From Lytechinus pictus (lineage: Eukaryota), in contig NC_087251.1 in NCBI RefSeq assembly GCF_037042905.1, positions 26,538,001-26,602,000 of the forward strand: a DNA stretch of 64,000 nucleotides. Reading direction: 5' to 3'. A program made the translations under genes and the position numbers. Position 1 is the first letter of the stretch. Each line of letters starts with the position of its first letter. A model generated the notes under the pieces. It made no database searches. It was not told the DNA's origin and saw nothing but the letters and a program-made list of their open reading frames with translations. This document shows positions 4,426 to 64,000 of the stretch, one piece after another.

Positions 4426-4643
<218 letters not shown>

Positions 4644-15854: not shown

Positions 15855-15894
15855 GGTAACGATGTCACACTACCTATGGAGATGTGCTCCAACT
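15855..15894 (+). CDS. PPP3R1: Calcineurin subunit B, exon 2 (GNDVTLPMEMCSN + first base of F)
   Basis: ttttcag|GGT...AAC T|gtaagt, 40 nt. Matches the vertebrate N-terminus GNEASYPLEMCSHF. Confidence 0.93.
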
Positions 15895-25891: not shown

Positions 25892-26068
25892 TTGATGCGG
25901 ATGAGATCCGTAGGCTTGGGAAGCGGTTTAAGAAGCTTGATCTTGATAACTCTGGTTCTCTGAGTGTGGATGAGTTTATGTCATTACCGGAGCTGCAGCA
26001 GAATCCACTGGTTCAAAGGGTTATTGATATATTTGACGAGGACGGAAACGGAGAGGTAGATTTCAAAG
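25892..26068 (+). CDS. PPP3R1: Calcineurin subunit B, exon 3 (EF-hands 1-2)
   Basis: acag|TT GAT...AAA G|gtaagt, 177 nt. Encodes [58 protein letters not shown]. Confidence 0.98.
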
Positions 26069-30463: not shown

Positions 30464-30523
30464 AATTCATCCAGGGTGTATCACAATTCAGTGTGAAAGG
30501 AGACAAAGAATCAAAACTTAGAT
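30464..30523 (+). CDS. PPP3R1: Calcineurin subunit B, exon 4
   Basis: Polypyrimidine tract, then cag|AA TTC...AGA T|gtaagt, 60 nt. Encodes EFIQGVSQFSVKGDKESKLR. Confidence 0.97.
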
Positions 30524-33106: not shown

Positions 33107-33291
33107 TCTTCTTCAGGATCTATGACGTGGACCACGATGGTTACATCTCAAACGGTGAACTGTTCCAGGTCTTAAAGATGATGGTAGGGTCCAACCTCAA
33201 GGACACTCAGCTGCAGCAGATCGTAGACAAGACCATCACCAATGCTGACTTGGATGGTGATGGCAAAATATCCTATGAGGAATTCTGCACT
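33107..33291 (+). CDS. PPP3R1: Calcineurin subunit B, exon 5 (EF-hands 3-4)
   Basis: ttcag|TC TTC...TGC ACT|gtaagt, 185 nt. Encodes [61 protein letters not shown]. Confidence 0.97.
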
Positions 33292-43116: not shown

Positions 43117-44210
43117 GGGCCATATTCTGAAAATTGTCTTAAGAGAAATATAAGAGTTACATCTTTTCTTGTCACTTTCACTAAGCGTTTATGACGTCAA
43201 AGTTACAATGATGCGTAAATTAAAAAACGGCGCATATATCTCTGTGTGCAAGATAACATATCGAGATAAGAGGTATTCTGAAAATTCTCTTATCTTTGCA
43301 TTCTGTTAACTTCCTTGCAAAATACAAGAAAATGTACAAGAGGTAGGGGGCTATTGTAACTTAATGTTGAATGCGATATTTCAAGGTCAACAAAAATAAT
43401 TTCTTGCTGCATCTCGCAAGAACGTCATGTTTTACAAACGGAGACATTCCAAAGACGTTATAAATAATGACGGATTGGTAGACTTTTCAGCAATTGAAAA
43501 TTGGCATTCCTGATGTTGAATCTTTTCAACAATGCGCTTAAGGGCAATTCCATAGGTTGGTGGACATGAGCTCAATGTGTCTTTGTACATATAACCCATC
43601 TGAACCGTAACGTAACCACTTTATCTGCACCCCTAGTAAAAACCATGTGTTCTTTATTTTTTTTAATTATATACAAATTTGTCTCCCTAATATACTTCTT
43701 TGAAATTGATATAATCAACTTTCATAAAAGCCTTGTATGAGGACACTTTTCACTTATGTCCACTTTTCATTTTATGCATGTCCAAATCATGTAACATGAG
43801 TAACCGACACATTTCAAAGATTTGCTAGGAGCATAATGAAATTTCCCAAGTTTTGTTTTTATACAAAAGATAGTCAGACTGCATACTATGTTGTGATAAA
43901 GAGATGTTTAGTTCCTATCAATAATAATGGAGTTACAGCTCCAAGTATGAATCAAGGTGTCTCCAAATGTAACGTGGGTAACCGTGGAATAGCCCTTAAT
44001 AATTTTTTAGAAGGGACGCTTCTATTGGTTTACCGAAACAAAAAGTTTAATGATTGGTTGATGATAAAATATTAGGCGTGTCAGAGATGAAATAGTGGAC
44101 GTCCTTACAGAGATAAGACAATTTTCAGAATACCAATTTAATAGAATTCTAGCAAGCTGTTATCTTCCTGAGTTACAAGAAAAGTCAAGACAGTTTTCAG
44201 AATACCACCC
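43117..44210. mobile_element. Harbinger-like MITE (CTG TSD) with a nested TTAA element
   Basis: ctg-gggccatattctgaaaattgtctt ... aagacagttttcagaataccaccc-ctg. Confidence 0.7.
43538..43999. mobile_element. Nested TTAA-site MITE
   Basis: TTAA-gggcaattccataggtt ... aaccgtggaatagccc-TTAA. Confidence 0.75.
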
Positions 44211-44469
44211 CTGAACTACAGAAAGCCAGCAGTGCCATCATTATTTGTGTGCTTGTTTCCCTTGGTTAACCAGAAAGATAATGAATGATAACAAGAAAGA
44301 TCACCAGAATGGACGAGACAAGTAATTTAGTAGACGGTGCATAATTCAAAAAGGCATACACAGATTCTCAATAATGGTATCACTCATCAGGGGTAGATCC
44401 CGCTTTTGCCAATAGAGCAGTTCGTAGTCACCTCATGGGCAAGTTTGCACAATTTGGTCAGCAATTCAC

Positions 44470-44900
44470 GAAGGAGACGTGTATCTAGCTCATCATTTAA
44501 TGCGAGCGCAAAGCACAAGCTAAAAATTTTGATATTCTGACCTAAAAACAGAAAATTTTAAGCAAGTTTTATTAAAAATGAGTAGCATGCAGCACCAGAC
44601 AAAATGTTTTGATATATGAGAAAGGAAACATCTGATCTAAAAACTGGTCATTCTAAGCATTTTATGTATTCTTGATCAGGATGGATATCTAACTAAACAT
44701 TTCGAGACATGGAAAAGGGACATTTTTAAGGATACTTTGTAAGAAGTCATTGACAGGATCTGTATGTCACTAATCAAATCATGCAAGAGTGCAACCTAAG
44801 CAGATTTTTTTTCATATTCAGGCCTGAAAATGGGACATTAATTTTAAGCACTTATTTGTATCCATGAACAGAATGTGTATTTTGTTCAACAATTTTGACG
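44470..44900 (-). repeat. Diverged reverse-oriented array of the GCTCGCGCTTCGCGCTCGCA-family subrepeats
   Basis: tgcgagcgcaaagcacaagctaaaaattttgatattctgacctaaaa is the reverse complement of the subrepeat seen at 0.9-3.5 kb and 7.3-7.9 kb. Confidence 0.55.
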
Positions 44901-47472
44901 TTTTGGGCAGGTAGAGTTCTCTCATCTGCTCCTGCTCTACAACTCCACTTGCTGATTCAAGCCAGCCTTCTCTCATCTCACACTCAAGCTAGCCTTCTAC
45001 TCAACCCTCCAATCTTGCCTACCAATTAAGTCTTTCTACTCTTTCTGATTTACAGTCCTTTTAGGACTACACTCTTTTCCGAAAGATATACTCCACTTTC
45101 TAGCCTTCACTTCTTTCTCTATCCTCTTTCTCTTCGTCCTTTTCCAGGACTTTACACATGGTGTACCATAAACCATTTCCTCGATTGTTCATACCACCTT
45201 CAAACATAATCTGAAACTTTTCACCTTTTTATCAATAATTCAACCATTCATTTATCGATATCAGTACAACAAATAGTGTTAAGATTCCTGTTTCTTTTAC
45301 ATTAAAACAAACATTTGTAGCTTTACATTGATGAATACAATGGAAATCAACTTACCAGTAATGATGATTGCTGAAGTGCTCAGTCATTATCAGGAGTTTC
45401 TTCTGCTTTTAACTCAGTCTCAGATGAAATTCTGCATCACAACTCACATCCATCAAGTGCAATGGCACTTTCTCACTATAAACTTTTGTACAAACTAAAA
45501 TTTTCAAGGATTTGGGGAATGTTTCATAAGATTTGTCAGTGATTTTCACTTTATACAGTTTTGTGCCGGGGCTCAGCCAATAACAATGCATGGAACTGCA
45601 ATAGCTTATATTTATCTGTCAGTGAATGGACCAACATAGAGATGGACAATTAATGCGAGCATTCCTTTGATGCAATGATAGTCACTGTCACCTGATTATG
45701 TGCATCTTAATGAGACCATTCAGGTGATTTACAATAGTGACTACCAAGGTGTATCTGAAAAGTAGTATAGAAATTTTTTCTTTCATTGTAAAAAGGGGAT
45801 AGACCGAGCATGGACCTATAAAGAGATGGACATTCATCGCTTAGATAATGTATTCACTAACAGGTGACTATAATTGTCATCTGAATAACATTCTCTTCAT
45901 ACTAGTCTTCTTTGGTCCTATGATCGTCACTGTGAGAAGGGACTGAAGCAGTTCGTGACTGGACATTTATATTTCACAAATTATATGCGCAATAGATAAC
46001 AAATCACTTAAATCATGGAAAATCTATGTGCAGTTCTTGTTTACCTTTGGTAATCTTAGTTCCATGTGTTTTATTTGGGGAAATGTCTGCATATTTTACT
46101 ATAGAGGCAATATTGTGATTGTTTACCATTTAAAATTTAATTTTCCCAAGTTTCTCCATAATATTCCAGAAATGTGTGGTACATAACATGTATAGATCTT
46201 GTATCTCTCAATGTTATTGACTGAGGTCCTTATGTGTGAGCGGTAGTTAGCAGATCGAATAATATCATATTTTATATCATAAAAATCCTCTGCTTCTCAA
46301 GTTTTCTGCTCCAAATATGAAGCATGTTGACTGAAAGGCACATGCTGAAACAGGGTATCAGCCAACAAAAATCAAGACCGGGAAACTGTTCCGTCTTTGG
46401 GTGATCAGATATGCCTTGGTAGTTATGGTAATTGCTATTGTTACAACACCTGTATGTTCTCATTAAGATGCGCATAACCAGGCGACGGTGACGATTATTG
46501 GACCAAAGACATGCTTGCGTTAATTGTCCATCTCTTCATAGGTCCATGGACAGAGAGAGAGAGGGCTGGGAGGGGAGGGGGGGGGGGGGGGGTAAGAGAA
46601 AGATAGAGATAAGGAGAGAATGGGGTGCATATATTATAAAAAATAATAGTAAATGGACCTTACACAAGGACACTTTTTTTGTATAGGGCTATATTTTGCA
46701 ACTTCTATTCAATTCTATAAAAAAACCCACACTTTTAATTGAAACCCTTTCATGTGGTAAATGGTATATGCACCAAAATGTTCATTGGCGATGGTTTAGC
46801 GCGTAAGAAAGGTTCATCAGTCGTTCTTAAAGTCGCTCTTAACTTACGAACAGCTTTATGAAACAGCCCCCAGGCCTAGAATTATCAAAATTTCAATCCC
46901 TGGGCCCTTTTTCAACTTAGGACTGTTTTTTTTACAGGTTGGGGATGAATCACTCTCTGTGCATATACAACTATTTTTCCGGACCTTACAAGAAAAACAA
47001 TTTATAACATCAACCTCGATGAAGTGAATTTCAACAGGATAGGTTAAAATGAATACCTGAAGGTGCTTTCATAAAAGTAGAGTATTGATCAGTGGTCAAT
47101 GTTGGTTGATTGAGTGACTGTCTTGATCTTTGACCAATTTGGTCTATAACAACATTATGGCGTATACATGTATACCTTGGGTATTTTACTGAGGTAATTA
47201 TGAGAACACTCAACAGTTACTCTGCCATCACTGACTGTTGTGACTGACACTCTACTGTTGTTCTAGAGTGAGAGGACCTACACACTCCATATATTCACAT
47301 TGGACTATATCATAAGTCTATATCACTAAATACACAAGTCTATATCACTCAATACACAATATAAAGAACATGATGGATCCATCTGGAATATGAATATTCA
47401 TATAGCTTTTTTTTTTATTAACATCAGATTAGTCACCTCAAAACTGCTTTGAATTGCAATTATGTAACATCA

Positions 47473-47514
<42 letters not shown>

Positions 47515-49743
47515 TTTTATGTAAGTAATATAAAAATGAAATAGGCAATAATTTTTTCAACTATTAATCTAGGTAAACATCAAAAGATTTGAATCAAAAG
47601 TTTGAATACCAAGAATACACATTACAAAGTATATAAAAATTCAAATACATCAATTTGTAGAAATTCAATGGAGTGGGTGATAAGGAATGAATGAAATTAT
47701 TACCCTGTATTTGAAGCCTATATGAAGCTTTGATCAATCCAATAGACAATATTCTTTCAATTGCTTCAAATTTGCTTTTTAAGGTTAATGCATCATTAAA
47801 TAATCTATTTAGAAAAAAAATAAGTGAAATAAGTGTGACCACCTCCCCCCAAAAATACTGCATTAGATTCTTTTTTATAATTTCATTAAAAACATGGCAA
47901 ATTTAAAGATTTGAAAAGATTTTATGATTTTTTTTGTTATTTTACAAACCTTATGAGCAAAACAAGAGATATGGATGATATCATAATTGGCTTTATTGGT
48001 TTAGCATTTCAAACTCATGAACAATATGAAAGGAAGAGTTACTGTAATAAAGAGTAAATCTCTTTCTTAACAACACATAATACTCGATGTTCAGTTTTTT
48101 ATTTATGACCTTTTTTTGGTGGGGATTAAGGAATACAGTACATTATCTATATGCATGCAAACCTTATGATATAGTGACCATCCATTACAAACACAAACAG
48201 TGACCTTTATAGACAGGTGAGACAAGTTCTTAAATACAATTAGTGGGCATTGGTTTTTGTGGTCACTATAGGCAGGCAGCCCCTTACATAGGTTTGATTG
48301 AATATAAAAACCTGTTTAATATAGAGGTATCCCAGTACTTACAGCACTGGTCATTCATGGGTTTAAATCTTTAATATACACAATATAATTTTTTTTCTCG
48401 TCATTAATATGAATCTCTTTTTGTGCTTTAACAGATGACTACCCATTTAAAAAAAATTATTAAGGAAATAATTGCAGTTGCACATACACCTTATTTCATA
48501 AATAACATAAATAGTTTTATTCATCTGAATAACATAAATAGTTTTATTCATCTCATATCTCACTCTGAAATTTTTTCTTAGAAATTATACATTTCTGTTT
48601 CCTAAACACAGATATATAAAAATTATGTGATAAAAATATATCAAAACAAACAAAAGACCTCTCTATAATTATAAATCAGCTACACAATGAGATCTGACAC
48701 ATATTCATATACTACAATAGAAATGGTCAGGAACATACCCTGTATTTTGTATCATAATTGCCACTAAAATAATCACAATAATACTGAAATTCAAAGATAT
48801 AATTCAACAAAAAGAACAAATTATTCTTAATTGTTACAAATTAATTCAACAAACAGCCTATCAAACTGGAGGATTGTGGGTAAAGTCATGATCACAATAA
48901 ATGTTATTCATAATCTATAATGCTTTCTACAGATGCACATGGCTAGATTTTGGTCATTTAAATTATTTTCTTCAGAATTGCAAGAGCATGCTCATGACAT
49001 AATTCTCCATTTCCTCCAGATGCACTACTCCAAACAAATATGCCTTTCTGGAAAAAAAACTCCAAACCCCCCCAAAAAAAATATTTGACAACGGTCTGTA
49101 GTATACCGAGATGTGACTCATGTCACCTTGCACAAGGAAAAAATAATTATTTCTATACTGGTAGAGGGGGCTACTTTTGTTACATATCAAAACCACATTT
49201 TATGTGGAACCGAGATCAATTAATGGTGCTCTTTGACAGATTGTTGGGGTGATTTTTTTTATTGGTGAATCATTCAACCCTTGTGATGTGATGCTGCAGA
49301 AATCTTGTTTTGCAGAGTGTAGTGTGTAATGAAAGGGCAGTAGTACTTTCATTTAATTCAGCAAAATAAATAATGAAAGTTGAATTATGAACTTACTGAG
49401 AACTGAAAGGAAACATGAAATTGTGTCTTGCTTGCTAATCAAGACTCTGAAAACACAATCAATGATGGCCATCATCTAATCACCAAGACTTTTGGGCTGC
49501 TTGGTAGTTACATTTTGAACACAACCAATAAGTGAAAGATCCTAGGCATTAAGGCAGCAAATAACTACACACTGAGTGAAGCTGAAGGAGGGGAGCAGCC
49601 ATGCCAAGCGTATCCTGGGAACCACTTTCACAAACCCCATCAATTTTATTCCCATTCAATTTTTCTGAACTAACCATCCTTTTCATCCCCCAAAGTTCAG
49701 AAAATATCATTGAAGACAGAGAAGGATAAGAAAATTAATACGA

Positions 49744-51030
49744 CATACACAAAACTTGATAAATTGTGTTCATTTTGTCATAAGAGTTGTGGGAGAAAAG
49801 TTATTCAACATGTTCAAATATTCCACAAGGATGTAAAGGATGTCTACCAAGTATTTGTCCAACAAGCAGCAACCCAAGAAAGAAGTGGGGCACTAACAAA
49901 ATGAAGATTAAAGACCAAAGATTGAAGACTGAAGTTAGGAAACCAAAGACATTTAGAAGGCTAATATTCATAGCCAAGGCATGCCTCCCTCTCACAGGAA
50001 GAAGGGAGTCGGGGCCCATCTCCGTGATTTTTGGCAGAAGATGGTTTAACCTGCAAAGAAAAACAGGGACCAGAGGTCAAAGACAGGAGGTAGACCCCAA
50101 ACCAAATAAAAGGCTAGGATGGCTTCCAACTGACCACTCCTATGACTCACATTTGTCAGTTAATCAGTTCGTTCTTAAAGGTCTATGACAGGTAAAAAGT
50201 AATCTCATCTTATCAATCATAAATTTATTGAAAGTGAAGGGAGTGCTAGTGGTGGAGGGGTGGTATAAGGAGTCTAGATGGGCACGTTTCAATTTTTAAA
50301 GTTACTTTGTACGCTATGTGGAGAATATTTGACAAGAATAGATTTAAGAATAGATTCTGTGTTGAACACTGATTTAATAGCAGAGCAAACAGATATTTCA
50401 GCTCAAGAAGACACAGGGGAAGTCAACCACACAAATTTTTGTTTGGGGTGCTATGCACAGTTGATAAAAAATAAAAATAAAACGGAAACATTGTGGCAAC
50501 CCACAGCGAATTGGGTAGGACATGAAAGAAACAAGAAATGTAGTGTTGTGAAAAAGCAACAAGGTTGCTCAAGGGAGAAAAACCTCAAAAGAAAAGTCAA
50601 GGATGGCTTCTTACTGACCATTCACTTGGCTCAACCCTTGAAAGTTAATTACAGTTTGTTCTCAAAGGATTGGATGAAATACAGACAAAAAATGCATTTG
50701 CTTTGAGTGAGGAGATGTCTCATTTGTCTTGTTTTGTCACTCTGCTATGTTATGTGTTATGCGCTATACAAAAACTGACCATTATTATTATTAATAGCCT
50801 GAAAAAGGACGCCCCTTAAAACAAAAGACTACTACATGTACCTGTATACATCTGAAATAGAACCTTATATGACAATTACACCAGGGACTCCAGAAACTAT
50901 GGTACCTGTAAATCATATTCAATTTTATCTGATGTCAATGCAGAGAAGTACGTATGCATGATATGCCAAAATCACACAATGTGAGACAAACGTGGAAGAC
51001 CCTGTGGTAGCAAGCGATGGCTATTGAAAT
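49744..51030 (+). pseudogene. Decayed gene with two RAG1-N-terminal (CND)/Chapaev-like Zn modules and a RING remnant
   Basis: ORF 50278-50706 has LKLLCTLCG...DLIAEQTDISAQEDTGEVNHTNFCLGCY...WVGH...C...LKRK. This parallels RAG1 LRHLCRICG...[28 protein letters not shown]...WHPH...C...LKRK (by eye, recalled sequence). A second copy LDKLCSFC lies near 49756, and YVCMICQN at about 50949-50972. Confidence 0.55.
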
Positions 51031-51569
51031 CACTTTGCATGGCTATGATTCAGTTTATATGAGTGTATTCAGCCTACTCTATGAATAATGCATTTCAGCG
51101 AAGTACAATATCAATGACTTATAATGATTTGGATTATGTTCCATTTATCGTACAAATTATTTTATTAAGTCCTTTTCTTTACACCAAAGCATATGTGGTT
51201 CCAACATTTCAGTAAGAGTGGGAGCAACCAGCCAATATTTGTTGACACATTGAGACAATACACATGAGAGATGGCTGGCTTGATTCCAACAATATATCTT
51301 TGGAGAAATTGCTGATGATAGGGTATGGGCAGCATTGAGACATCTGGTTATAAATCACGAACAATTTATTTCTTTAGTTTAGGATAGAAAATTTGGAATA
51401 TTAAAATCAGGAGTTTCAAATATGTTATTGGCTTCAGGATGGTATGGAACGATAAAATCCTGACCAACTAAGAAGTTTTTTTACATTTCACAACTGGTTC
51501 TAATACCTCACCATGTGATATAAGGAAAACAAGCACAACTTTGAACCACTCGTACTACCCTCAACAAAA

Positions 51570-52013
51570 ATGCCTCAGAGACGATCTTTCACTGCAGCAT
51601 TCAAACTCTCTGTCTGCCAGTATGCAGAAGAGTTTGGAAACAGGGTAGCAGGGCAACATCACGGTGTGGACGAGTCTGTCATCAGACGATGGAGATCAAA
51701 CAGCGACACTCTGAAGGCGATGCTGAGAACAAAGAAGGCAATGAGAGGGAAGGCAGCTAGATGGCCGGCACCGAAAAAGAAGGTTATCGCCTGGGTTAGA
51801 GAAAAGCGTAGTGAGGGCCACGCTCTATCAACTGTGGAGCTTTGCATCAAAGGGAGGCGCATAGCTGAGGCTGATGGGATTGATGACTTGACTGGGTCTA
51901 AGATGTGGGCTCATCGATTCATGGCCCACCACAACCTCTCAATGCGGCGACGAACCCACATCTCCCAAAGACACCCCGACGATTTCGACAGCAAAATAAT
52001 GAACTTCCAGTGA
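51570..52013 (+). CDS. Truncated pogo transposase N-terminus (Brinker-like HTH + CENP-B-type HTH), 147 aa, unit 1
   Basis: MPQRRSFTAAFKL..YAEEFGNR..GVDESVIRRWR and WVREKRSEG..S..WAHRFM..HNLSMRRRT. Expression is unknown. Confidence 0.5.
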   Translation: MPQRRSFTAAFKLSVCQYAEEFGNRVAGQHHGVDESVIRRWRSNSDTLKAMLRTKKAMRGKAARWPAPKKKVIAWVREKRSEGHALSTVELCIKGRRIAEADGIDDLTGSKMWAHRFMAHHNLSMRRRTHISQRHPDDFDSKIMNFQ

Positions 52014-52901
52014 TTTGTTATTAATAGACGGCGGCTCCATGACTACCCACTTTTCATTTATCGTACAAATTATTTTATTTAGTCCTTTTCTTTACACCAA
52101 AGCATGTGGTTCCGAGATTTCAGTAAGAGTGGGAGCAACCAGCCAATATTTGTTGACACATTGAGACAATACACATGAGAGATGGCCGGCACCGGAGGAG
52201 AAGGTTATCGCCTGGGTAAGAGAGAAGCGTAGTGAGGGCCACTCTCTATCAACTGTGGAGCTTTGCATCAAAGGGAGGCGCATAGCTGAGGCTGACGGGA
52301 TTGATGACTTGACTGGGTCTAAGATGTGGGCTCATCGATTCATGGCCCACCACAACCTCTCAATGCGGCAACAAACCCACATCTCCCAAAGACACCCCGA
52401 CAATTTCAACAGCAAAATAATGAACTTCCAGTGATTTGTTATTAATAGACGGCGGCTCCATGACTACCCACTTTTCATTTATCGTACAAATTATTTTATT
52501 TAGTCCTTTTCTTTACAACAAAGCATGTGGTTCCGAGATTTCAGTAAGAGTGGGAGCAACCAGCCAATATTTGTTGACACATTGAGACAATACACATGAG
52601 AGATGGCTGGCTTGATTCCAACAATATATCTTTGGAGAAATTGCTGATGATAGGGTATGGGCAGCATTGAGACATCTGGTTATAAATCACGAACAATTTA
52701 TTTCTTTAGTTTAGGGTAGAAAATTTGGAATGTTAATATCAAGAGTTTCAAATATGATATTGGCTCCAGGATGGTATGGAACGATAAAATCCTGACCAAC
52801 TTAGAAGTTTTTTTACATTTCACAACTGGTTCTAATACCTCACCATGTGATATAAGGAAAACAAGCACAGCTTTGAACCACTCATACTACCCTCGACAAA
52901 A

Positions 52902-55900
52902 ATGCCTCAGAGACGATCTTTCACTGCAGCATTCAAACTCTCTGTCTGCCAGTATGCAGAAGAGTTTGGGAACAGGGCAGCAGGGCAACATCACGGTGTG
53001 GACGAGTCTGTCATCAGACGATGGAGATCAAACAGCGACACTCTGAAGGCAATGCTGAGAACAAAGAAGGCAATGAGAGGGAAGGCAGCTAGATGGCCGG
53101 CACCGGAGGAGAAGGTTATCGCCTGGGTAAGAGAGAAGCGTAGTGAGGGCCACGCTCTATCAACTGTGGAGCTTTGCATCAAAGGGAGGCGCATAGCTGA
53201 GGCTGACGGGATTGAGACTTGACTGGGTCTAAGATGTGGGCTCATCGATTCATGGCCCACCACAACCTCTCAATGCGGCGACGAACCCACATCTCCCAAA
53301 GACACCCCGACGATTTCGACAGCAAAATAATGAACTTCCAGTGATTTGTTATTAATAGACGGCGGCTCCATGACTACCCACTTTTCATTTATCGTACAAA
53401 TTATTTTATTTAGTCCTTTTCTTTACAACAAAGCATGTGGTTCCGAGATTTCAGTAAGAGTGGGAGCAACCAGCCAATATTTGTTGACACATTGAGACAA
53501 TACACATGAGAGATGGCTGGCTTGATTCCAACAATATATCTTTGGAGAAATTGCTGATGATAGGGTATGGGCAGCATTGAGACATCTGGTTATAAATCAC
53601 GAACAATTTATTTCTTTAGTTTAGGGTAGAAAATTTGGAATGTTAATATCAAGAGTTTCAAATATGATATTGGCTCCAGGATGGTATGGAACGATAAAAT
53701 CCTGACCAACTTAGAAGTTTTTTTACATTTCACAACTGGTTCTAATACCTCACCATGTGATATAAGGAAAACAAGCACAGCTTTGAACCACTCATACTAC
53801 CCTCGACAAAAATGCCTCAGAGACGATCTTTCACTGCAGCATTCAAACTCTCTGTCTGCCAGTATGCAGAAGAGTTTGGGAACAGGGCAGCAGGGCAACA
53901 TCACGGTGTGGACGAGTCTGTCATCAGACGATGGAGATCAAACAGCGACACTCTGAAGGCAATGCTGAGAACAAAGAAGGCAATGAGAGGGAAGGCAGCT
54001 AGATGGCCGGCACCGGAGGAGAAGGTTATCGCCTGGGTAAGAGAGAAGCGTAGTGAGGGCCACGCTCTATCAACTGTGGAGCTTTGCATCAAAGGGAGGC
54101 GCATAGCTGAGGCTGACGGGATTGAGACTTGACTGGGTCTAAGATGTGGGCTCATCGATTCATGGCCCACCACAACCTCTCAATGCGGCGACGAACCCAC
54201 ATCTCCCAAAGACACCCCGACGATTTCGACAGCAAAATAATGAACTTCCAGTGATTTGTTATTAATAGACGGCGGCTCCATGACTACCCACTTTTCATTT
54301 ATCGTACAAATTATTTTATTTAGTCCTTTTCTTTACAACAAAGCATGTGGTTCCGAGATTTCAGTAAGAGTGGGAGCAACCAGCCAATATTTGTTGACAC
54401 ATTGAGACAATACACATGAGAGATGGCTGGCTTGATTCCAACAATATCTTTGGAGAAATTGCTGATGATAGGGTATGGGCAGCATTGAGACATCTGGTTA
54501 TAAATCACGAACAATTTATTTCTTTAGTTTAGGGTAGAAAATTTGGAATGTTAATATCAAGAGTTTCAAATATGATATTGGCTCCAGGATGGTATGGAAC
54601 GATAAAATCCTGACCAACTTAGAAGTTTTTTTACATTTCACAACTGGTTCTAATACCTCACCATGTGATATAAGGAAAACAAGCACAGCTTTGAACCACT
54701 CATACTACCCTCGACAAAAATGCCTCAGAGACGATCTTTCACTGCAGCATTCAAACTCTCTGTCTGCCAGTATGCAGAAGAGTTTGGGAACAGGGCAGCA
54801 GGGCAACATCACGGTGTGGACGAGTCTGTCATCAGACGATGGAGATCAAACAGCGACACTCTGAAGGCAATGCTGAGAACAAAGAAGGCAATGAGAGGGA
54901 AGGCAGCTAGATGGCCGGCACCGGAGGAGAAGGTTATCGCCTGGGTAAGAGAGAAGCGTAGTGAGGGCCACGCTCTATCAACTGTGGAGCTTTGCATCAA
55001 AGGGAGGCGCATAGCTGAGGCTGACGGGATTGAGACTTGACTGGGTCTAAGATGTGGGCTCATCGATTCATGGCCCACCACAACCTCTCAATGCGGCGAC
55101 GAACCCACATCTCCCAAAGACACCCCGACGATTTCGACAGCAAAATAATGAACTTCCAGTGATTTGTTATTAATAGACGACGGCTCCATGACTACCCACT
55201 TTTCATTTATCGTACAAATTATTTTATTTAGTCCTTTTCTTTACAACAAAGCATGTGGTTCCGAGATTTCAGTAAGAGTGGGAGCAACCAGCCAATATTT
55301 GTTGACACATTGAGACAATACACATGAGAGATGGCTGGCTTGATTCCAACAATATCTTTGGAGAAATTGCTGATGATAGGGTATGGGCAGCATTGAGACA
55401 TCTGGTTATAAATCACGAACAATTTATTTCTTTAGTTTAGGGTAGAAAATTTGGAATGTTAATATCAAGAGTTTCAAATATGATATTGGCTCCAGGATGG
55501 TATGGAACGATAAAATCCTGACCAACTTAGAAGTTTTTTTACATTTCACAACTGGTTCTAATACCTCACCATGTGATATAAGGAAAACAAGCACAGCTTT
55601 GAACCACTCATACTACCCTCGACAAAAATGCCTCAGAGACGATCTTTCACTGCAGCATTCAAACTCTCTGTCTGCCAGTATGCAGAAGAGTTTGGGAACA
55701 GGGCAGCAGGGCAACATCACGGTGTGGACGAGTCTGTCATCAGACGATGGAGATCAAACAGCGACACTCTGAAGGCAATGCTGAGAACAAAGAAGGCAAT
55801 GAGAGGGAAGGCAGCTAGATGGCCGGCACCGGAGGAGAAGGTTATCGCCTGGGTAAGAGAGAAGCGTAGTGAGGGCCACGCTCTATCAACTGTGGAGCTT

Positions 55901-55948
55901 TGCATCAAAGGGAGGCGCATAGCTGAGGCTGACGGGATTGAGACTTGA
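52902..55948 (+). pseudogene. Four frameshifted 106-aa copies of the transposase N-terminus (52902, 53812, 54720, 55628)
   Basis: A shared 1-bp deletion (gattgagact vs gattgatgact) truncates the second HTH. Confidence 0.8.
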
Positions 55949-56535
55949 CTGGGTCTAAGATGTGGGCTCATCGATTCATGGCCCACCACAACCTCTCAAT
56001 GCGGCGACGAACCCACATCTCCCAAAGACACCCCGACGATTTCGACAGCAAAATAATGAACTTCCAGTGATTTGTTATTAATAGACGGCGGCTCCATGAC
56101 TACCCACTTTTCATTTATCGTACAAATTATTTTATTTAGTCCTTTTCTTTACAACAAAGCATGTGGTTCCGAGATTTCAGTAAGAGTGGGAGCAACCAGC
56201 CAATATTTGTTGACACATTGAGACAATACACATGAGAGATGGCTGGCTTGATTCCAACAATATCTTTGGAGAAATTGCTGATGATAGGGTATGGGCAGCA
56301 TTGAGACATCTGGTTATAAATCACGAACAATTTATTTCTTTAGTTTAGGGTAGAAAATTTGGAATGTTAATATCAAGAGTTTCAAATATGATATTGGCTC
56401 CAGGATGGTATGGAACGATAAAATCCTGACCAACTTAGAAGTTTTTTTACATTTCACAACTGGTTCTAATACCTCACCATGTGATATAAGGAAAACAAGC
56501 ACAGCTTTGAACCACTCATACTACCCTCGACAAAA

Positions 56536-56979
56536 ATGCCTCAGAGACGATCTTTCACTGCAGCATTCAAACTCTCTGTCTGCCAGTATGCAGAAGAGTT
56601 TGGGAACAGGGCAGCAGGGCAACATCACGGTGTGGACGAGTCTGTCATCAGACGATGGAGATCAAACAGCGACACTCTGAAGGCAATGCTGAGAACAAAG
56701 AAGGCAATGAGAGGGAAGGCAGCTAGATGGCCGGCACCGGAGGAGAAGGTTATCGCCTGGGTAAGAGAGAAGCGTAGTGAGGGCCACGCTCTATCAACTG
56801 TGGAGCTTTGCATCAAAGGGAGGCGCATAGCTGAGGCTGATGGGATTGATGACTTGACTGGGTCTAAGATGTGGGCTCATCGATTCATGGCCCACCACAA
56901 CCTCTCAATGCGGCGACGAACCCACATCTCCCAAAGACACCCCGACGATTTCGACAGCAAAATAATGAACTTCCAGTGA
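56536..56979 (+). CDS. Truncated pogo DNA-binding-only ORF, 147 aa, unit 7
   Basis: Open from ATG to the shared TGA after KIMNFQ. Confidence 0.5.
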   Translation: MPQRRSFTAAFKLSVCQYAEEFGNRAAGQHHGVDESVIRRWRSNSDTLKAMLRTKKAMRGKAARWPAPEEKVIAWVREKRSEGHALSTVELCIKGRRIAEADGIDDLTGSKMWAHRFMAHHNLSMRRRTHISQRHPDDFDSKIMNFQ

Positions 56980-57444
56980 TTTGTTATTAATAGACGGCGG
57001 CTCCATGACTACCCACTTTCCATTTATTGTACGAATTATTTTATTTAGTCCTTTTCTTTACAACAAAGCATGTGGTTCCGAGATTTCAGTAAGAGTGGGA
57101 GCAACCAGCCAATATTTGTTGACACATTGAGACAATACACATGAGAGATGGCTGGCTTGATTCCAACAATATCTTTGGAGAAATTGCTGATGATAGGGTA
57201 TGGGCAGCATTGAGACATCTGGTTATAAATCACGAACAATTTATTTCTTTAGTTTAGGGTAGAAAATTTGGAATGTTAATATCAAGAGTTTCAAATATGA
57301 TATTGGCTCCAGGATGGTATGGAACGATAAAATCCTGACCAACTTAGAAGTTTTTTTACATTTCACAACTGGTTCTAATACCTCACCATGTGATATAAGG
57401 AAAACAAGCACAGCTTTGAACCACTCATACTACCCTCGACAAAA

Positions 57445-57888
57445 ATGCCTCAGAGACGATCTTTCACTGCAGCATTCAAACTCTCTGTCTGCCAGTATGC
57501 AGAAGAGTTTGGGAACAGGGCAGCAGGGCAACATCACGGTGTGGACGAGTCTGTCATCAGACGATGGAGATCAAACAGCGACACTCTGAAGGCGATGCTG
57601 AGAACAAAGAAGGCAATGAGAGGGAAGGCAGCTAGATGGCCGGCACTGGAGGAGAAGGTTATCGCCTGGGTTAGAGAGAAGCGTAGTGAGGGCCATGCTC
57701 TATCAACTGTGGAGCTTTGCATCAAAGGGAGGCGCATAGCTGAGGCTGATGGGATTGATGACTTGACTGGGTCTAAGATGTGGGCTCATCGATTCATGGC
57801 CCACCACAACCTCTCAATGCGGCGACGAACCCACATCTCCCAAAGACACCCCGACGATTTCGACAGCAAAATAATGAACTTCCAGTGA
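57445..57888 (+). CDS. Truncated pogo DNA-binding-only ORF, 147 aa, unit 8
   Basis: Open from ATG to the shared TGA. It carries the WPALEE variant. Confidence 0.5.
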   Translation: MPQRRSFTAAFKLSVCQYAEEFGNRAAGQHHGVDESVIRRWRSNSDTLKAMLRTKKAMRGKAARWPALEEKVIAWVREKRSEGHALSTVELCIKGRRIAEADGIDDLTGSKMWAHRFMAHHNLSMRRRTHISQRHPDDFDSKIMNFQ

Positions 57889-58353
57889 TTTGTTATTAAT
57901 AGACGGCGGCTCCATGACTACCCACTTTCCATTTATTGTACGAATTATTTTATTTAGTCCTTTTCTTTACACCAAAGCATGTGGTTCCGAGATTTCAGTA
58001 AGAGTGGGAGCAACCAGCCAATATTTGTTGACACATTGAGACAATACACATGAGAGATGGCTGGCTTGATTCCAACAATATCTTTGGAGAAATTGCTGAT
58101 GATAGGGTATGGGCAGCATTGAGACATCTGGTTATAAATCACGAACAATTAATTTCTTTAGTTTAGGGTAGAAAATTTGGAATGTTAATATCAAGAGTTT
58201 CAAATATGATATTGGCTCCAGGATGGTATGGAACGATAAAATCCTGACCAACTTAGAAGTTTTTTTACATTTCACAACTGGTTCTAATACCTCACCATGT
58301 GATATAAGGAAAACAAGCACAGCTTTGAACCACTCATACTACCCTCGACAAAA

Positions 58354-58797
58354 ATGCCTCAGAGACGATCTTTCACTGCAGCATTCAAACTCTCTGTCTG
58401 CCAGTATGCAGAAGAGTTTGGGAACAGGGAAGCAGGGCAACATCACGGTGTGGACGAGTCTGTCATCAGACGATGGAGATCAAACAGCGACACTCTGAAG
58501 GCGATGCTGAGAACAAAGAAGGCAATGAGAGGGAAGGCAGCTAGATGGCCGGCACTGGAGGAGAAGGTTATCGCCTGGGTTAGAGAGAAGCGTAGTGAGG
58601 GCCATGCTCTATCAACTGTGGAGCTTTGCATCAAAGGGAGGCGCATAGCTGAGGCTGATGGGATTGATGACTTGACTGGGTCTAAGATGTGGGCTCATCG
58701 ATTCATGGCCCACCACAACCTCTCAATGCGGCGACGAACCCACATCTCCCAAAGACACCCCGACGATTTCGACAGCAAAATAATGAACTTCCAGTGA
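58354..58797 (+). CDS. Truncated pogo DNA-binding-only ORF, 147 aa, unit 9
   Basis: Open from ATG to the shared TGA. Confidence 0.5.
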   Translation: MPQRRSFTAAFKLSVCQYAEEFGNREAGQHHGVDESVIRRWRSNSDTLKAMLRTKKAMRGKAARWPALEEKVIAWVREKRSEGHALSTVELCIKGRRIAEADGIDDLTGSKMWAHRFMAHHNLSMRRRTHISQRHPDDFDSKIMNFQ

Positions 58798-59262
58798 TTT
58801 GTTATTAATAGACGGCGGCTCCATGACTACCCACTTTCCATTTATTGTACGAATTATTTTATTTAGTCCTTTTCTTTACACCAAAGCATGTGGTTCCGAG
58901 ATTTCAGTAAGAGTGGGAGCAACCAGCCAATATTTGTTGACACATTGAGACAATACACATGAGAGATGGCTGGCTTGATTCCAACAATATCTTTGGAGAA
59001 ATTGCTGATGATAGGGTATGGGCAGCATTGAGACATCTGGTTATAAATCACGAACAATTAATTTCTTTAGTTTAGGGTAGAAAATTTGGAATGTTAATAT
59101 CAAGAGTTTCAAATATGATATTGGCTCCAGGATGGTATGGAACGATAAAATCCTGACCAACTTAGAAGTTTTTTTACATTTCACAACTGGTTCTAATACC
59201 TCACCATGTGATATAAGGAAAACAAGCACAGCTTTGAACCACTCATACTACCCTCGACAAAA

Positions 59263-60525
59263 ATGCCTCAGAGACGATCTTTCACTGCAGCATTCAAACT
59301 CTCTGTCTGCCAGTATGCAGAAGAGTTTGGGAACAGGGAAGCAGGGCAACATCACGGTGTGGACGAGTCTGTCATCAGACGATGGAGATCAAACAGCGAC
59401 ACTCTGAAGGCGATGCTGAGAACAAAGAAGGCAATGAGAGGGAAGGCAGCTAGATGGCCGGCACTGGAGGAGAAGGTTATCGCCTGGGTTAGAGAGAAGC
59501 GTAGTGAGGGCCACGCTCTATCAACTGTGGAGCTTTGCATCAAAGGGAGGCGCATAGCTGAGACTGATGGGATTGATGACTTGACTGGGTCTAAGATGTG
59601 GGCTCATCGATTCATGGCCCACCACAACCTCTCAATGCGGCGACGAACCCACATCTCCCAAAGTCACCCCAACGATTTCGACAGCAAAATAATGAACTTC
59701 CAGCGATTTGTTATTAATAGACGGCTGCCCCATGACTACCCACTCAGCTGCATCGGGAAAGCCAATCAGACGCCCCTCACATTTGATCTTCCAAGGTGGT
59801 CCACTATTGCCAGCAAGGGAGAGAAGTAGGTCAACATCATCAGCACTGGGCACGAGAAAGACCGATTTATGGTGATGCTGGCATGTACAGCTGACGGCGG
59901 CAAACCCCCTCCGTATATTGTCTTTAAGTGGAAGACTCTTCCGAAAGAGAAGTTTCCAGCGGGAATCGTGAAGGCCCAGGTGAAAGGTTTGTTTGATCAG
60001 GACATCATCGAGGACTGGGTGAGGACGGTCTGGGCGAGAGGCGGTGGCATCACAAAGAGAAACAGCATGCTCATTCTCGATGCCTTTCGGTGTCACAAGA
60101 CAGAAGAGACAAAGGCCCTTCTTGCCGCAAAGAACACCGATCTTGTTATCATACTGGGTGGTATGACATCTATGCTCCAGCCCCTCGACATCAGCATCAA
60201 CAAGCCATTCAAGGATGCTCTTCATCAGCGATGGTCTGCTTGGATGAAAGAGGGGGAGAAATTCTTCATCCAGTCCGGTCAACAGAGAAAGGCGGATCTA
60301 CAGACGGTGTGCAGATGGGTCTTGGAGGCATGGAACAGCATCTACACAGATATCATTCGACGCTCATTCCTGAAATGCTGCATTTCAAATAGCCTCGATG
60401 GGACAGAGGATGATGCCATCTGGGAAGAGGAAGAGCGAGTCGATGAGGATGATGACTCCGACTCAGATGAGCTGCGCGCCGTGTTTGAAGACTCGTCTGA
60501 CGGGGAAGACTTCTTTGGCTTCTAA
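59263..60525 (+). pseudogene. Full-length pogo-family (POGK/Passer-like) transposase with one in-frame stop
   Basis: ORFs 59263-59829 and 59869-60525 are in the same frame, separated by TAG at 59827-59829. Motifs include TGHEK, VMLACTADG, LILDAFRCH and LQPLDISINKPFK (D-x35-D), plus an acidic tail. The first catalytic Asp position reads Asn (ANQTP). Confidence 0.92.
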
Positions 60526-60589
60526 GCTAGAGATACACATAATCAAAACGGCCCTTTGCAGGGCCACAAATATTCCAGAAAGAAATAGT

Positions 60590-61070
60590 GATTTGTCTCC
60601 ATCACCATCCTCTTCTCTTTTCATCCCCTCCTAAATCTTTTTTTTTCAATTTCTTCCATTTGCCTTTTCTTCATTTCTCTCTTTGTTAATCCTCCTCTTA
60701 AAATCTATCTTTAATTTCCCTCTTTTTACTTCTTCATTTTTTCTCTTCTATTTTTCCATACCTTTTTATAACTCTATTTTCTCATGCAAGTAAGAAAAAA
60801 AAATTATTTATCTCCACCTCCTATCTCTTTTCATCTCATTCTCGTTCTTATCTTTCTTCTCTTTATCATTTCTCCATGTTACCTTTTTTTATTTTTTTAT
60901 TTTTTTTTTTAAATTTTAATTCTACTCTGTTTTAATCTCCAATTTCTTCCATTTGCCTTTTTTTCATTACTCTCTTTGTCATTCATCATCTTAAAATCAA
61001 TCTTCAATTTCCCTCTTTATTTCTTCAGACTCTTTTAAAATTCTATTTTCTTTTCTATATTCACTTTATT
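60590..61070. repeat. CT-rich low-complexity tract with an ~80-bp direct duplication
   Basis: caatttcttccatttgcctttt...tttccctcttt occurs at about 60647 and 60940. Confidence 0.7.
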
Positions 61071-62191
61071 CCCACCCAAAGCTCCCAATAAAAAATACTA
61101 GCATTTTCCCCCCTATTTGCTGCCACACACGTACCGGGGTGTTTCAAAGCAGACGACAAGAAAAATACCTGAACAAAATATTGCAAATTTCTTGTATCTT
61201 GAACCTTCCCTTATCTAAGATTCATGTCAAGACATTGAATGCTAGACAGAATTCTGAAAGCGATAGTGGGACTGTGAAAAAGAAAATGAAAATCTTAAAA
61301 GAATGAATGGATAAAGGCAGGAGGAGATTTTAAAAAAAGATATACACATATTATTTTAGTGATTGATAATAAATCATACAAAGAAAGCAAGAAAATAAAA
61401 AAGGATCACAGACAATCAGTTAAATCTTTGAAAATTTGGGGTAACTCCCAAGTAGCTAATCAAGCTCTTGTCGTCAGGATATGTGGTGTGGCATCCTGAT
61501 GAAAATAGCCATTGGGCTAATTCTTTTCAGCTAATGGCATCAGATCAGGTTTGCTGTTTATCAATATTATTACGATACATGTAGGTTTACATTCTGTTTG
61601 GAGTGTGATCAGGGACCAAACAACAAGTCTCTGTTCAAGAAATTGGATGTGACTAAAAGATAAAACAAGTTTGAACTTTCAGAATCATGATACTTTTACA
61701 TATACGACATACAGCTCATGAAGAGTACACAAAACAATGTAATGAAATATGATATTGAATTTGAAGGAGCAAAGACAGGCAAAATGGCCACATATCAAGG
61801 CATTGATTTTCTTACAAAGACCAAACTTTCAATTTGTTCAAAGGATGACAAAGTGTCACTTTAAAATATCCTCTTTCAGTATAATTAGCGTTTCATTTGC
61901 AATTCATGTACTTAGCAGAACTGTGGTAGCTGGAATATGAACACATTACTTTCTAAGAAGTCTCCCTCTGGAAGATGTACACAGCTGAGTTTTGTGAAAA
62001 AATTGATAACCTGTTTGACTATTTGAATTCTAGATCATCTAGGGCTAGCCAAGACCATTATCCATAAAATGCTTTGTTTCACAAACCCAAAGTACGAACA
62101 CTGTTTGCTGTTGTGTGTACTGGATATAGTCACTTTGAAATATCCTCCTCTTTAAAGTGAGATTTAGTAGAAGAATTTGAACACATTTCCA

Positions 62192-62920
62192 TCTCATCAC
62201 TGCGGCGAATCAGTGAATTTAATAGAGAAGACGTTTGATTAATTTTGACTTCTAAAAGGAATTTAAAATATGATGAAGCATCCTAAGGTCTTAGATGAAC
62301 GATATTTGCTGCAAGGCTACAAAAGAGTAACAAGCAACTCATCACCAAAACTCAGAAGAGATGCTCCCTCAGAAAATGATAACAATTAACACAAAATGAC
62401 ATAGCTGTGGCACTCTCTCTATTCGCCAGAGGAAAGTAGCCATCAACAAATTTGCAGACAGTAGCAAGCAAAAAGTACGGTTGAGAAGAAAGAATAAGGG
62501 AAAAAAAACAAGCTGGAGGACCTGCTGACTAAGCTAGCTGCATTGCCAGGTCTCATCCCTTCAGCGAATCAGTGAACAGCAGCAGTGAACTTAATAGAGA
62601 AGACGTTTAATTCATTTTGGCTTCTAAAAGGAATTGAAAACATGACGAAGCATCCTAAGGTCTTTATATTTGCTGCAAGGCTACAAAAGAGCAACTAGCA
62701 ACTCACCAAAACTCAGTTGGAAGAGATTCTCCCTCAGAAAATGATTATAATGAACACAAAATAACATAGCTGTGGCACTCTCATTATTTGCCAGAGGAAA
62801 GAAGCCATCAACAAATTTGCCGACAGTAGCAAGCAAAAAGTACGGTTGACAAGAAAGAATGAGAAGGAAAAAAAAACAAGCTGGAGGACCTGCTGACTAA
62901 GCTAGCTGCATTGCCAGGTG
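62192..62920 (+). repeat. Tandem duplication of ~360 bp (two diverged copies)
   Basis: tctcatc...gcgaatcagtgaa...gctagctgcattgccaggt at 62192-62551 and 62551-62920. Confidence 0.9.
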
Positions 62921-64000
62921 ATGAAACATTGTCTGTGGGAGATGCAGTCTCAGGAAATGTCCCATGGCACTCTGATGGTCTTTCAACACCATCTCTGCCA
63001 TTTGGGGAGAAAAAGAAGATGGCGCATCTTTGGACACTAAGCAAAAGATATGAGGAGGCGGAATACCAATCGTGGGCAGAAATGAAAGGGGTGCTGTAGC
63101 ACTATCAGGAGAGGATTGCTTCATTACAGGAAGAAAAGTCATCAGAACATAACATTATATTCTTATCAGAATCAAAAGGTTCAAATATTTCACAGGCTTC
63201 AGGATGGCATGGAATGGTTAAATCATTTCTTGAGGCGATTTCAGCAAGCATAGTCTATAGTGATTACCAAGAAGCTGACACAGGCGATAAACAAAATTGA
63301 ATATCACAAGATGACAAGTATAACAGGCCTATTATGGGATATGTGCCACCAATGCTTTGGGGTGAATTTTTTTAAGGAAAAGAAGGATACTGAATCAGAT
63401 GTCATGAATTACACGTTCAGAAATGGGACATTTGTCTCTAATAAACTTAAAAGACACAACATGATGCTTTGAAGAGTACTATTTGAAGGAAAATGATACT
63501 AAAAGAGGTCATGTGATGCAGAATTGGACGTGGAGGAGATAAAGGCGGAAGAGTAAGGCAGAGGAGAAAGAGGTAAAAACAGAGGAAATGGAGACCGGCT
63601 GATTACTCATGATACATGTAATAAAGAAAGTAATATGATTATTTTAAAGAAGATGGCTCAGATGGTGGAAAGGGGGATACAGGAACAAGAGGAAACTCTT
63701 GGGAGAATGAATGGATAAAGGCAGGTGATAGAAGCAGCATATGAAGAGCCAGAGGAGATGTAAATATGTGATAATAAATTATGCAAAGAAAGAAAATCAA
63801 AGTGGATGATAGTGAAGCAGGTAAATTTTGGAAAATTTGGGATACCTCCCCCCCCCCCGTCGCAAATCAGGCTCAAGTTACGCAGTGTGGCATCCCAATG
63901 GAACATCCATTGGGATACTCTTTTTCAGCTAATGGTATCAGAGCAGGTCTACTGGAGAGGATCATAAAAGATTGCTTATCAAATATTATAACAATTGGGT

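What the first reader, a model, noticed from the sequence alone, without database searches (positions are those of the whole stretch)
51139..60525. Tandem amplification of a pogo transposase 5' end into an array of DNA-binding-only ORFs ahead of the full-length copy
Seen: ten head-to-tail units, each made of ~430 bp of upstream flank plus the first ~480 bp of a pogo transposase; only the last unit continues into the DDE domain. All nine upstream units have TGA where the terminal copy has CGA (59704-59706). That stop sits about 40 nt before the junction and just after the second HTH. Four units therefore encode a clean 147-aa Brinker-like HTH + CENP-B-type HTH protein, and four encode a 106-aa frameshifted form. 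Known: pogo DNA-binding domains have repeatedly been domesticated (CENP-B, POGK, JRK, TIGD), and truncated DBD-only transposases such as the P-element KP protein can repress transposition. Inference: this could be a dosage-amplified repressor, a nascent domesticated gene, a small-RNA source, or simply a neutral TE-derived satellite at an early stage.
Basis: partly seen in the sequence, partly recalled or inferred. Interest (0 to 1): 0.8.

Follow-up and report, generated by a model that had tools for sequence, protein, structure and literature searches.

The report
Tandem repeat from a dead transposon
A broken piece of a jumping gene has been copied ten times head to tail in this animal genome; its DNA-binding half looks as decayed as the rest and the few RNA reads appear to run backwards across it, so it is most likely an ordinary repeat rather than a new repressor gene.

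Summary
The array is real: ten units, 51139-59744, nine with TGA and one with CGA. Its junction also appears in contigs of two other studies. The 'full-length' last copy is dead: TAG at 59827-29 and first catalytic Asp changed to Asn. It is a fragment without terminal repeats of a Passer (pogo, DD35D) family that has an intact copy on C13 and many young non-autonomous copies. The DNA-binding half has lost conserved residues as often (7 of 68) as the dead catalytic half (15 of 144), and six of these losses predate the amplification. The TGA is a CpG change carried along with the junction, and the frame would end at 170 aa without it. About 36 raw RNA reads over the unit all lie on one strand, most likely antisense read-through from a minus-strand calmodulin-lysine methyltransferase-like gene just beyond the window. 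Best reading (0.75): a neutral transposon-derived tandem repeat expanded by unequal crossing-over. Rivals: antisense piRNA source against the family (0.13); repressor or domesticated protein (0.06). The scan had not noted this on other DNA.

The parts
51139..52051 (+). Unit 1 (913 bp), most diverged; 147-aa BrkDBD + HTH_Tnp_Tc5 ORF at 51570-52013
   Evidence: 23-29 substitutions against the other full units
52052..52472 (+). Unit 2 (421 bp); ~490-bp internal deletion between 7-bp direct repeats removes the ATG and the first HTH
52473..56108 (+). Units 3-6 (910, 910, 908, 908 bp), 0-1 substitutions apart; 1-nt deletion gives 106-aa ORFs at 52902, 53812, 54720, 55628
56109..58835 (+). Units 7-9 (909 bp each); 147-aa ORFs at 56536-56979, 57445-57888, 58354-58797; mosaics of neighbouring haplotypes
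58836..59744 (+). Unit 10; keeps CGA at 59704-06 and runs on into the catalytic half
58836..59222 (.). 387-bp non-Passer part of the unit (shown for unit 10), with a 61-bp match to decayed repeat DNA at 63164-63224
59263..60525 (+). Dead Passer transposase pseudogene: TAG at 59827-29, first catalytic Asp changed to Asn at 59764-66, one-codon deletion; D274 and D310 kept
60526..61277 (+). Passer 3' non-coding remnant; similarity to the intact element ends near 61270, before the right terminal repeat
61746..62064 (+). Decayed P-element/THAP9-like transposase pieces (Pfam TNP-like_GBD) in the 3' flank
   Evidence: (E 5e-5 and 1.4e-5; one of the two over the cut-off)
58836..63999 (-). Low one-strand RNA coverage over unit, catalytic half and flank, inferred to be 3' UTR or read-through of the minus-strand gene beyond the window

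Best explanation
A neutral, transposon-derived tandem repeat. An internal fragment of a Passer (pogo) element, lacking both terminal repeats and the 2-kb 5' region, sat among older transposon debris and decayed. One tandem duplication of about 910 bp then copied 387 bp of flank plus the first 522 bp of the fragment. The left copy gained a CpG stop (CGA to TGA) 38 nt before the junction. Unequal crossing-over multiplied the junction-bearing unit, carrying the stop and later a frameshift with it. The DNA-binding-only ORFs are a by-product of where the breakpoint fell. The locus is crossed at low level by antisense read-through from the neighbouring gene. Shown: structure, family, lesions, junction in other samples, one-strand reads. 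Inferred: order of events, unequal crossing-over, absolute strand, neutrality.
For: Intact relative on C13 with TA target site, short terminal repeats and a 421-aa DD35D ORF; the window matches only element positions 2035-4577 of 4927 and holds no terminal repeat at up to 9 mismatches of 33. Departures at conserved sites among 122 homologues: 7 of 68 (DNA-binding half; U8, U9, U10), 8 (U7), 9 (U1), against 15 of 144 in the dead catalytic half; the C13 copy has 3 of 68 and 1 of 144; whole fragment versus C13 22/212 vs 4/212, P=0.0004. R29Q, P52L, E67A, F107L, R120H, L135H are in all five copies aligned (U1, U7, U8, U9, U10), so they predate amplification. Without the TGA the frame stops at 170 aa in the junction; the unit ORF has 6 CGA codons. 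Neighbouring units are most alike, U3, U4 and U6 have no substitutions between them, and 17 of 78 informative site pairs fail the four-gamete test. The frameshift allele has depth 69.5 of 69.5 in X1 and 22.4 of 34.3 in X2. RNA depth over the unit, summed over all copies, is 3.5 and 2.8 against 1.1 and 0.8 in single-copy flank, all one strand. No close short homologue among 19 candidates (one hit, 54%). Another cluster of dead transposase pieces lies on C2 (8 of 25 PF21788 matches within 18 kb).
Against: Changes private to the window against C13 and C11 are biased to synonymous (16 of 33 in the DNA-binding half, pN/pS 0.30, P=0.005 against a neutral simulation). The dead catalytic half shows the same bias (31 of 61, 0.28), so I read it as selection on the earlier active lineage, but the true parent copy is not in hand. 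For the DNA-binding half alone, 7/68 versus C13's 3/68 is not significant (P=0.32) and lies near the 95th percentile of homologues (10.8%). Within the array 7 of 20 changes are synonymous (pN/pS 0.52, P=0.12): weak power either way. Four ORFs remain open. RNA evidence is thin: 53 and 42 reads, one study, unknown tissue, about 6% of each run read. The array persists across samples from at least two other studies.
Confidence: 0.75

Rival explanations
1. An antisense small-RNA source of the 'piRNA cluster downstream of a gene' kind. Read-through from the minus-strand host gene crosses the dead transposase and its ten-fold amplified 5' half in antisense, and is cut into piRNAs or siRNAs that silence the intact C13 element. 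The amplification would raise the dose.
For: All depth over 58836-61084 is on one strand in both raw RNA runs, the same strand as in the flank towards the host gene. That gene is on the minus strand (exon matches human calmodulin-lysine N-methyltransferase 4PWY, E=0.004). 452 of 497 26-nt windows of the unit's transposon part are within 3 mismatches of the C13 element, 16 of 497 are perfect. The family was recently mobile: 27 of 41 listed matches are 502-bp left-end copies 99% identical to C13. The mechanism is described in mammals (PMC11615739, passages).
Against: No small-RNA data were available. If these animals carry about ten copies, per-copy RNA depth is below that of the flank. [quoted passage not shown] 387 of 909 bp of the unit is not Passer. 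The family made many near-identical copies, apparently while the array existed (dating not shown).
Confidence: 0.13
2. A dosage-amplified KP-like repressor or nascent domesticated protein: the 147-aa two-HTH product binds Passer ends and blocks the transposase, or has a host role.
For: Four open ORFs with both DNA-binding domains over Pfam cut-off and a match to the CENP-B DNA-binding domain 1HLV (E=4e-5). Truncated repressors exist (207-aa KP; PMC7776569, passages). A TATA-like word lies about 50 nt before each ATG (seen; untested).
Against: Near-invariant family residues are lost (F107 99%, R120 99%, L135 93%, R29 86% of homologues). 5 of 9 upstream units cannot make the protein. No read in the inferred sense direction among about 36, or about 18 pairs (upper 95% bound on sense share 8-15%). 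The native 5' region is gone. No close short homologue found.
Confidence: 0.06
3. The array arose by rolling-circle copying or capture by another mobile element rather than by duplication plus unequal crossing-over.
For: Rolling-circle origin is proposed for Bari1 clusters (PMC9659126, passage).
Against: The unit flank matched only this locus among the 40 of 543 candidates scored. Units differ in a graded, mosaic way (0 to 29 substitutions), which a single burst would not give.
Confidence: 0.04
4. Mis-assembly inflated a single or double copy.
For: U3, U4 and U6 have no substitutions between them; no long reads were seen.
Against: The junction is in contigs of X1 and X2, and T outweighs C at 59704 by 80.5 to 12.4 and 27 to 3 (contig depth is not a copy number, and the run type is not on record). 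Units carry distinct nested variants.
Confidence: 0.02

Closest known systems
Passer family of pogo DNA transposons (PMC7386202, PMC9976928; passages read)
   Same: [quoted passage not shown] The intact relative on C13 has DD35D, short terminal repeats and TA target sites; the window is 92% identical to it over the ORF.
   Different: The window copy has no terminal repeats, no 5' region, a stop and a lost catalytic Asp: a remnant, not an element. The C13 element is about 4.9 kb, longer than the 1.6-4.0 kb given in PMC9976928 but inside the 1.2-5.2 kb given for pogo in PMC7386202.
Transposon-derived tandem repeats and satellites (PMC12628747, PMC9659126; passages read), e.g. hobo and Bari1 arrays
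   Same: A head-to-tail array made from a central segment of a DNA transposon, with signs of unequal exchange.
   Different: Only ten units at one locus between two genes; the unit is part flank, part coding fragment, not a whole element; no sign of double insertion.
P-element KP repressor (PMC7776569, passages) and the tandem P-homologous genes of Drosophila guanche (Miller 1992; title seen only in reference lists, paper not held; loss of terminal repeats and repressor-like product recalled)
   Same: Truncated transposase keeping the DNA-binding part; in D. guanche also arranged in tandem.
   Different: KP keeps its ends and promoter and binds DNA. Here there is no sense RNA in the reads seen, no sign of conservation, and half the units are broken.
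piRNA clusters downstream of genes, piC-DoG (PMC11615739, passages)
   Same: Transposon fragments lying antisense in the read-through zone of a host gene.
   Different: Described in mammals; here no piRNAs were seen or testable, and the transcript level is low.
POGK and POGZ (Passer-derived host genes; PMC7386202, passages)
   Same: Same parent family, loss of terminal repeats.
   Different: Those are conserved, fused to host domains and under strong purifying selection (Ka/Ks about 0.06-0.07); this locus is decayed.

Membership tests
Passer (pogo) transposase lineage | BrkDBD + HTH_Tnp_Tc5 double DNA-binding motif | tested here: met
   both over cut-off in the 147-aa and 188-aa ORFs
Passer (pogo) transposase lineage | DD35D catalytic triad | tested here: met
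   C13 relative: D168, D274, D310, spacing 35. The window copy keeps D274 and D310 and has N at 168.
Passer (pogo) transposase lineage | Placement in the Passer clade by a tree with reference sequences | not tested
   no named reference set was aligned; assignment rests on domains, spacing and ends
Passer element (mobile copy) | Short terminal inverted repeats and TA target-site duplication | tested here: not met
   present at C13 and C11, absent from the window and the next 10 kb at up to 9 mismatches
Passer element (mobile copy) | Intact 400-500-aa transposase | tested here: not met
   TAG at 59827-29, D168N
Domesticated pogo gene | Loss of terminal repeats | tested here: met
Domesticated pogo gene | Purifying selection since insertion | tested here: inconclusive
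   equal loss of conserved residues in both halves argues against; pN/pS 0.30 against C13/C11 is confounded and equal in the dead half; within-array test weak
Domesticated pogo gene | Sense transcription | tested here: not met
   no read in the inferred sense direction among about 36 over the unit, two runs of one study, tissue unknown
Domesticated pogo gene | Conserved orthologue in related species | not testable with these tools
   no related genomes held; protein search gave one 54% hit among 19 candidates
KP-like repressor | Binds element ends and lowers transposition | not testable with these tools
   needs gel-shift and transposition assays
Transposon-derived tandem repeat | Head-to-tail units made from part of a transposon | tested here: met
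Transposon-derived tandem repeat | Homogenisation by unequal exchange | tested here: met
   neighbour similarity gradient, 17 of 78 site pairs incompatible; gene conversion not separable
piC-DoG piRNA cluster | Antisense transposon sequence in read-through of a host gene | tested here: inconclusive
   one-strand reads in the direction expected from the neighbour; no read links the gene's exons to the array; library orientation assumed
piC-DoG piRNA cluster | Production of piRNAs | not testable with these tools
   no small-RNA run among the 23 listed was labelled as such

The most novel reading that the evidence does not exclude
The array is a young, dosage-amplified antisense trap. Read-through from the calmodulin-lysine methyltransferase-like gene turns ten copies of the transposase 5' half into piRNA precursor aimed at a Passer family that still has an intact copy. 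That would be a piRNA cluster downstream of a gene caught at birth in an invertebrate deuterostome, growing by tandem amplification rather than by new insertions.
Probability: 0.13. Interest if true: 0.6.

Novelty: new member of a known kind. Interest (0 to 1): 0.2.

Why it matters
As it most likely stands, it is a tidy small example of a transposon coding fragment turning into a tandem repeat, with a readable history, and a caution that a shared stop before a junction needs no selection. It would matter more if small-RNA data showed it to be an antisense piRNA source: copy number could then be related to Passer activity across individuals, a direct test of how piRNA clusters start and grow outside mammals and flies.

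Tried and rejected
Terminal repeats near the array: none by inverted-repeat search of 44000-64000 (25 longest of 322 pairs shown) or by fuzzy search with the C13 end. Array inside an intron of a host gene: not supported. The calcineurin B-like exons found end at 33291 (its last exon was not located), and the minus-strand gene appears to stop about 2.4 kb beyond the window; that last exon and one other gave no PDB match to the methyltransferase, so they rest on recalled likeness. Retrocopy origin of the fragment: considered because it starts 40 bp before the ATG and ends at an A-rich stretch, but I saw no clear poly(A) or target-site duplication; left open. Unit flank as P-element coding remnant: no Pfam match for the upstream frames and no tblastn match upstream with an intact P-like protein. 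Tandem Repeats Finder missed the 909-bp period because it is capped at 500. The bacterial promoter scan is irrelevant to a eukaryote. No RNA holder on record was listed by the index. Structure prediction was not run, since it would not show the effect of point changes. Literature: no paper held all of sea urchin + pogo + tandem array + transposase, none held all five guanche terms, and Miller 1992 is not held; supplements of the Passer papers were not opened and may list this family. Earlier-findings look-ups by words and by sequence were empty. A protein search of the genome with the catalytic half and a fetch of the next 10 kb beyond L028 did not complete, so further family copies and the host gene's upstream exons are unexamined.
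Full report
OBSERVATION. The array is there. Cutting at the junction gives ten units from 51139 to 59744 of 913, 421, 910, 910, 908, 908, 909, 909, 909 and 909 bp. Nine have TGA and the last has CGA at 59704-06. U1, U7, U8 and U9 encode 147 aa, and U3-U6 encode 106 aa after a 1-nt deletion. U2 has lost about 490 bp, including the ATG, between 7-bp direct repeats. Pfam gives BrkDBD at aa 4-49, HTH_Tnp_Tc5 at aa 65-126 and DDE_1 downstream.

WHAT IT DERIVES FROM. The window lies on contig C7 of an 812-Mb genome. Earlier scan notes call the organism a sea urchin (not checked by me). A DNA search found relatives on C13 (92%), C11 (89%) and C16 (86%). The C13 copy is a complete element of about 4.9 kb with short terminal inverted repeats, TA at both ends and an intact 421-aa ORF. 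Its triad is D168, D274, D310 with 35 residues between the last two. BrkDBD + HTH_Tnp_Tc5, DD35D, short ends and TA sites define the Passer family of pogo (PMC7386202 and PMC9976928, passages). The family was recently mobile: a search with the element's left 2 kb listed 41 matches (40 of 524 candidates scored), of which 27 are 502-bp left ends 99% identical to C13 and 11 are 676-bp left ends at 90-92%. The window matches only element positions 2035-4577, from 40 bp before the ATG to about 61270, and has no terminal repeat. So 387 bp of each unit is not Passer, and the native 5' region is gone. The 3' flank holds decayed P-element-like transposase pieces.

IS THE DNA-BINDING PART KEPT BY SELECTION? 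I aligned the window proteins with 120 database homologues of the C13 protein (the best 120 of 877 listed) and two other intact copies from this genome. At columns where at least 60% of the 122 rows agree, the window has a rare residue at 7 of 68 sites in the DNA-binding half (U8, U9, U10; 8 in U7, 9 in U1) and at 15 of 144 in the catalytic half. C13 has 3 of 68 and 1 of 144, and homologue medians are 2.9% and 2.1%. The two halves do not differ (P=1.0), and the whole fragment differs from C13 (P=0.0004), but the DNA-binding half alone does not reach significance against C13 (P=0.32). Six lesions (R29Q, P52L, E67A, F107L, R120H, L135H) are in all five copies aligned, so the template was damaged before it was amplified. 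Against this reading, changes private to the window relative to C13 and C11 are biased to synonymous (16 of 33, pN/pS 0.30, P=0.005). The certainly dead catalytic half shows the same bias (31 of 61, 0.28), which points to selection on the active lineage before insertion. Within the array there are 7 synonymous and 13 non-synonymous changes (P=0.12), plus the frameshift and the deletion. A search with the 147-aa protein found one hit at 54% among 19 candidates; that search is insensitive and covers only 80-258 aa.

THE SHARED STOP. It lies 38 nt before the junction, so any unit that carries the junction is likely to carry it, as with two other changes nearby (59726, 59729). It is a CpG transition at one of six CGA codons in the unit ORF, and without it the frame would end at 170 aa inside the next unit's flank. 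It needs no selective explanation.

HOW THE ARRAY GREW (inferred). The junction joins the ORF to the flank with about 1 bp of microhomology. U1 and U10 differ at 29 sites; U3, U4 and U6 at none; neighbours are most alike; U7 and U10 are mosaics; 17 of 78 informative site pairs fail the four-gamete test. This fits one older duplication followed by repeated unequal exchange, a standard route for transposon-derived repeats (PMC9659126, PMC12628747, passages).

OTHER SAMPLES AND RNA. I laid 4 of the 23 listed runs on 58836-63999, so that all units collapse on U10 (94% likeness). Contigs of X1 and X2 (two studies, run type not on record) carry the junction, T at 59704 (80.5 of 92.9; 27 of 30) and the frameshift (69.5 of 69.5; 22.4 of 34.3). 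They differ from the window at many flank sites, so the junction is not an assembly artefact. Raw rRNA-depleted RNA runs X21 and X22 (one study, about 6% of each read) gave 53 and 42 reads. About 20 and 16 lie over the unit, at summed depth 3.5 and 2.8, against 0.9 over the catalytic half and 1.1 and 0.8 over the flank. Some are array-specific (flank allele at 59060 in 2 of 2 and 4 of 4 reads; T at 59704 in 2 of 2 in X22; the frameshift in 0 of 2 in each). All depth from 58836 to 61084 has the first mate on +. A little opposite-strand depth appears only in X21 at 61085-61430, where loose ends show reads from the intact type of element. In most stranded libraries this pattern means minus-strand RNA. 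That agrees with the neighbour: exon-like frames beyond the window are on the minus strand, one matches human calmodulin-lysine N-methyltransferase (4PWY, E=0.004), and a probable last exon stops about 2.4 kb beyond the window end (recalled likeness, no PDB match). No read ties that gene to the array, so the strand is inferred, not shown.

RIVALS. An antisense small-RNA source is the live alternative: 452 of 497 26-nt windows are within 3 mismatches of the C13 sequence, the target family is young, and read-through piRNA clusters are known in mammals (PMC11615739, passages). But no small RNA could be examined, the level is low, and that paper finds antisense transposon content common downstream of genes of all classes. 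A KP-like repressor (PMC7776569, passages) or a tandem domesticated gene as in D. guanche (title seen in PMC8616336; details recalled) is unlikely for the reasons above.

VERDICT. A real but ordinary transposon-derived tandem repeat, a new member of a known kind. Searches found no paper on it and no earlier scan note. Interest 0.2. The antisense-trap reading has probability about 0.13 and would deserve about 0.6.

Noticed in passing
window 15855-15894, 25892-26068, 30464-30523, 33117-33291 (+): Exons of a calcineurin B (PPP3R1)-like gene, named from recalled sequence likeness; last exon not located.
   Followed up: partly
L028 ~9110-9167, 6144-6207, 4882-5010, 2358-2588 (-): Exons of a calmodulin-lysine N-methyltransferase-like gene ending just beyond the window; one exon matches PDB 4PWY.
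   Followed up: partly
L023 2286-7204 (G000:C13): Intact 4.9-kb Passer element with a 421-aa DD35D ORF; at least 27 near-identical 502-bp left-end copies across the genome suggest recent activity.
   Followed up: partly
L042 (C18), L043 (C3), L051/L052 (C14), L040 (C3): Further Passer subfamilies at about 56-59% protein identity, two with intact ORFs; L040 encodes a 186-aa internally deleted form joining both HTH domains to the acidic tail.
   Followed up: no
G000:C2:50359222-50377026: Eight matches to the P-element-like GTP-binding domain with stops, 1.3-3.8 kb apart: probably another tandem array of dead transposase pieces.
   Followed up: no
window 61280-64000 and L028 1-~1200: Decayed P-element/THAP9-like transposase remnant with its own older direct duplications (348 bp at 88%, 717 bp at 68%); X1 lacks one 365-bp copy.
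   Followed up: partly
window 44432-44541 (-): Exon-like open frame with splice signals and a protein-like 36-aa translation; gene unknown.
   Followed up: no
window 5771-7300: Six copies of a 256-bp unit, 99% alike: another young tandem array.
   Followed up: no
window 45615-46558: Inverted repeat with 117-nt arms, 79% complementary, perhaps a small non-autonomous transposon.
   Followed up: no
window ~59207-59213 and the same place in each full unit: TATA-like word in the non-Passer flank about 50 nt before the ATG; no sense reads seen.
   Followed up: partly
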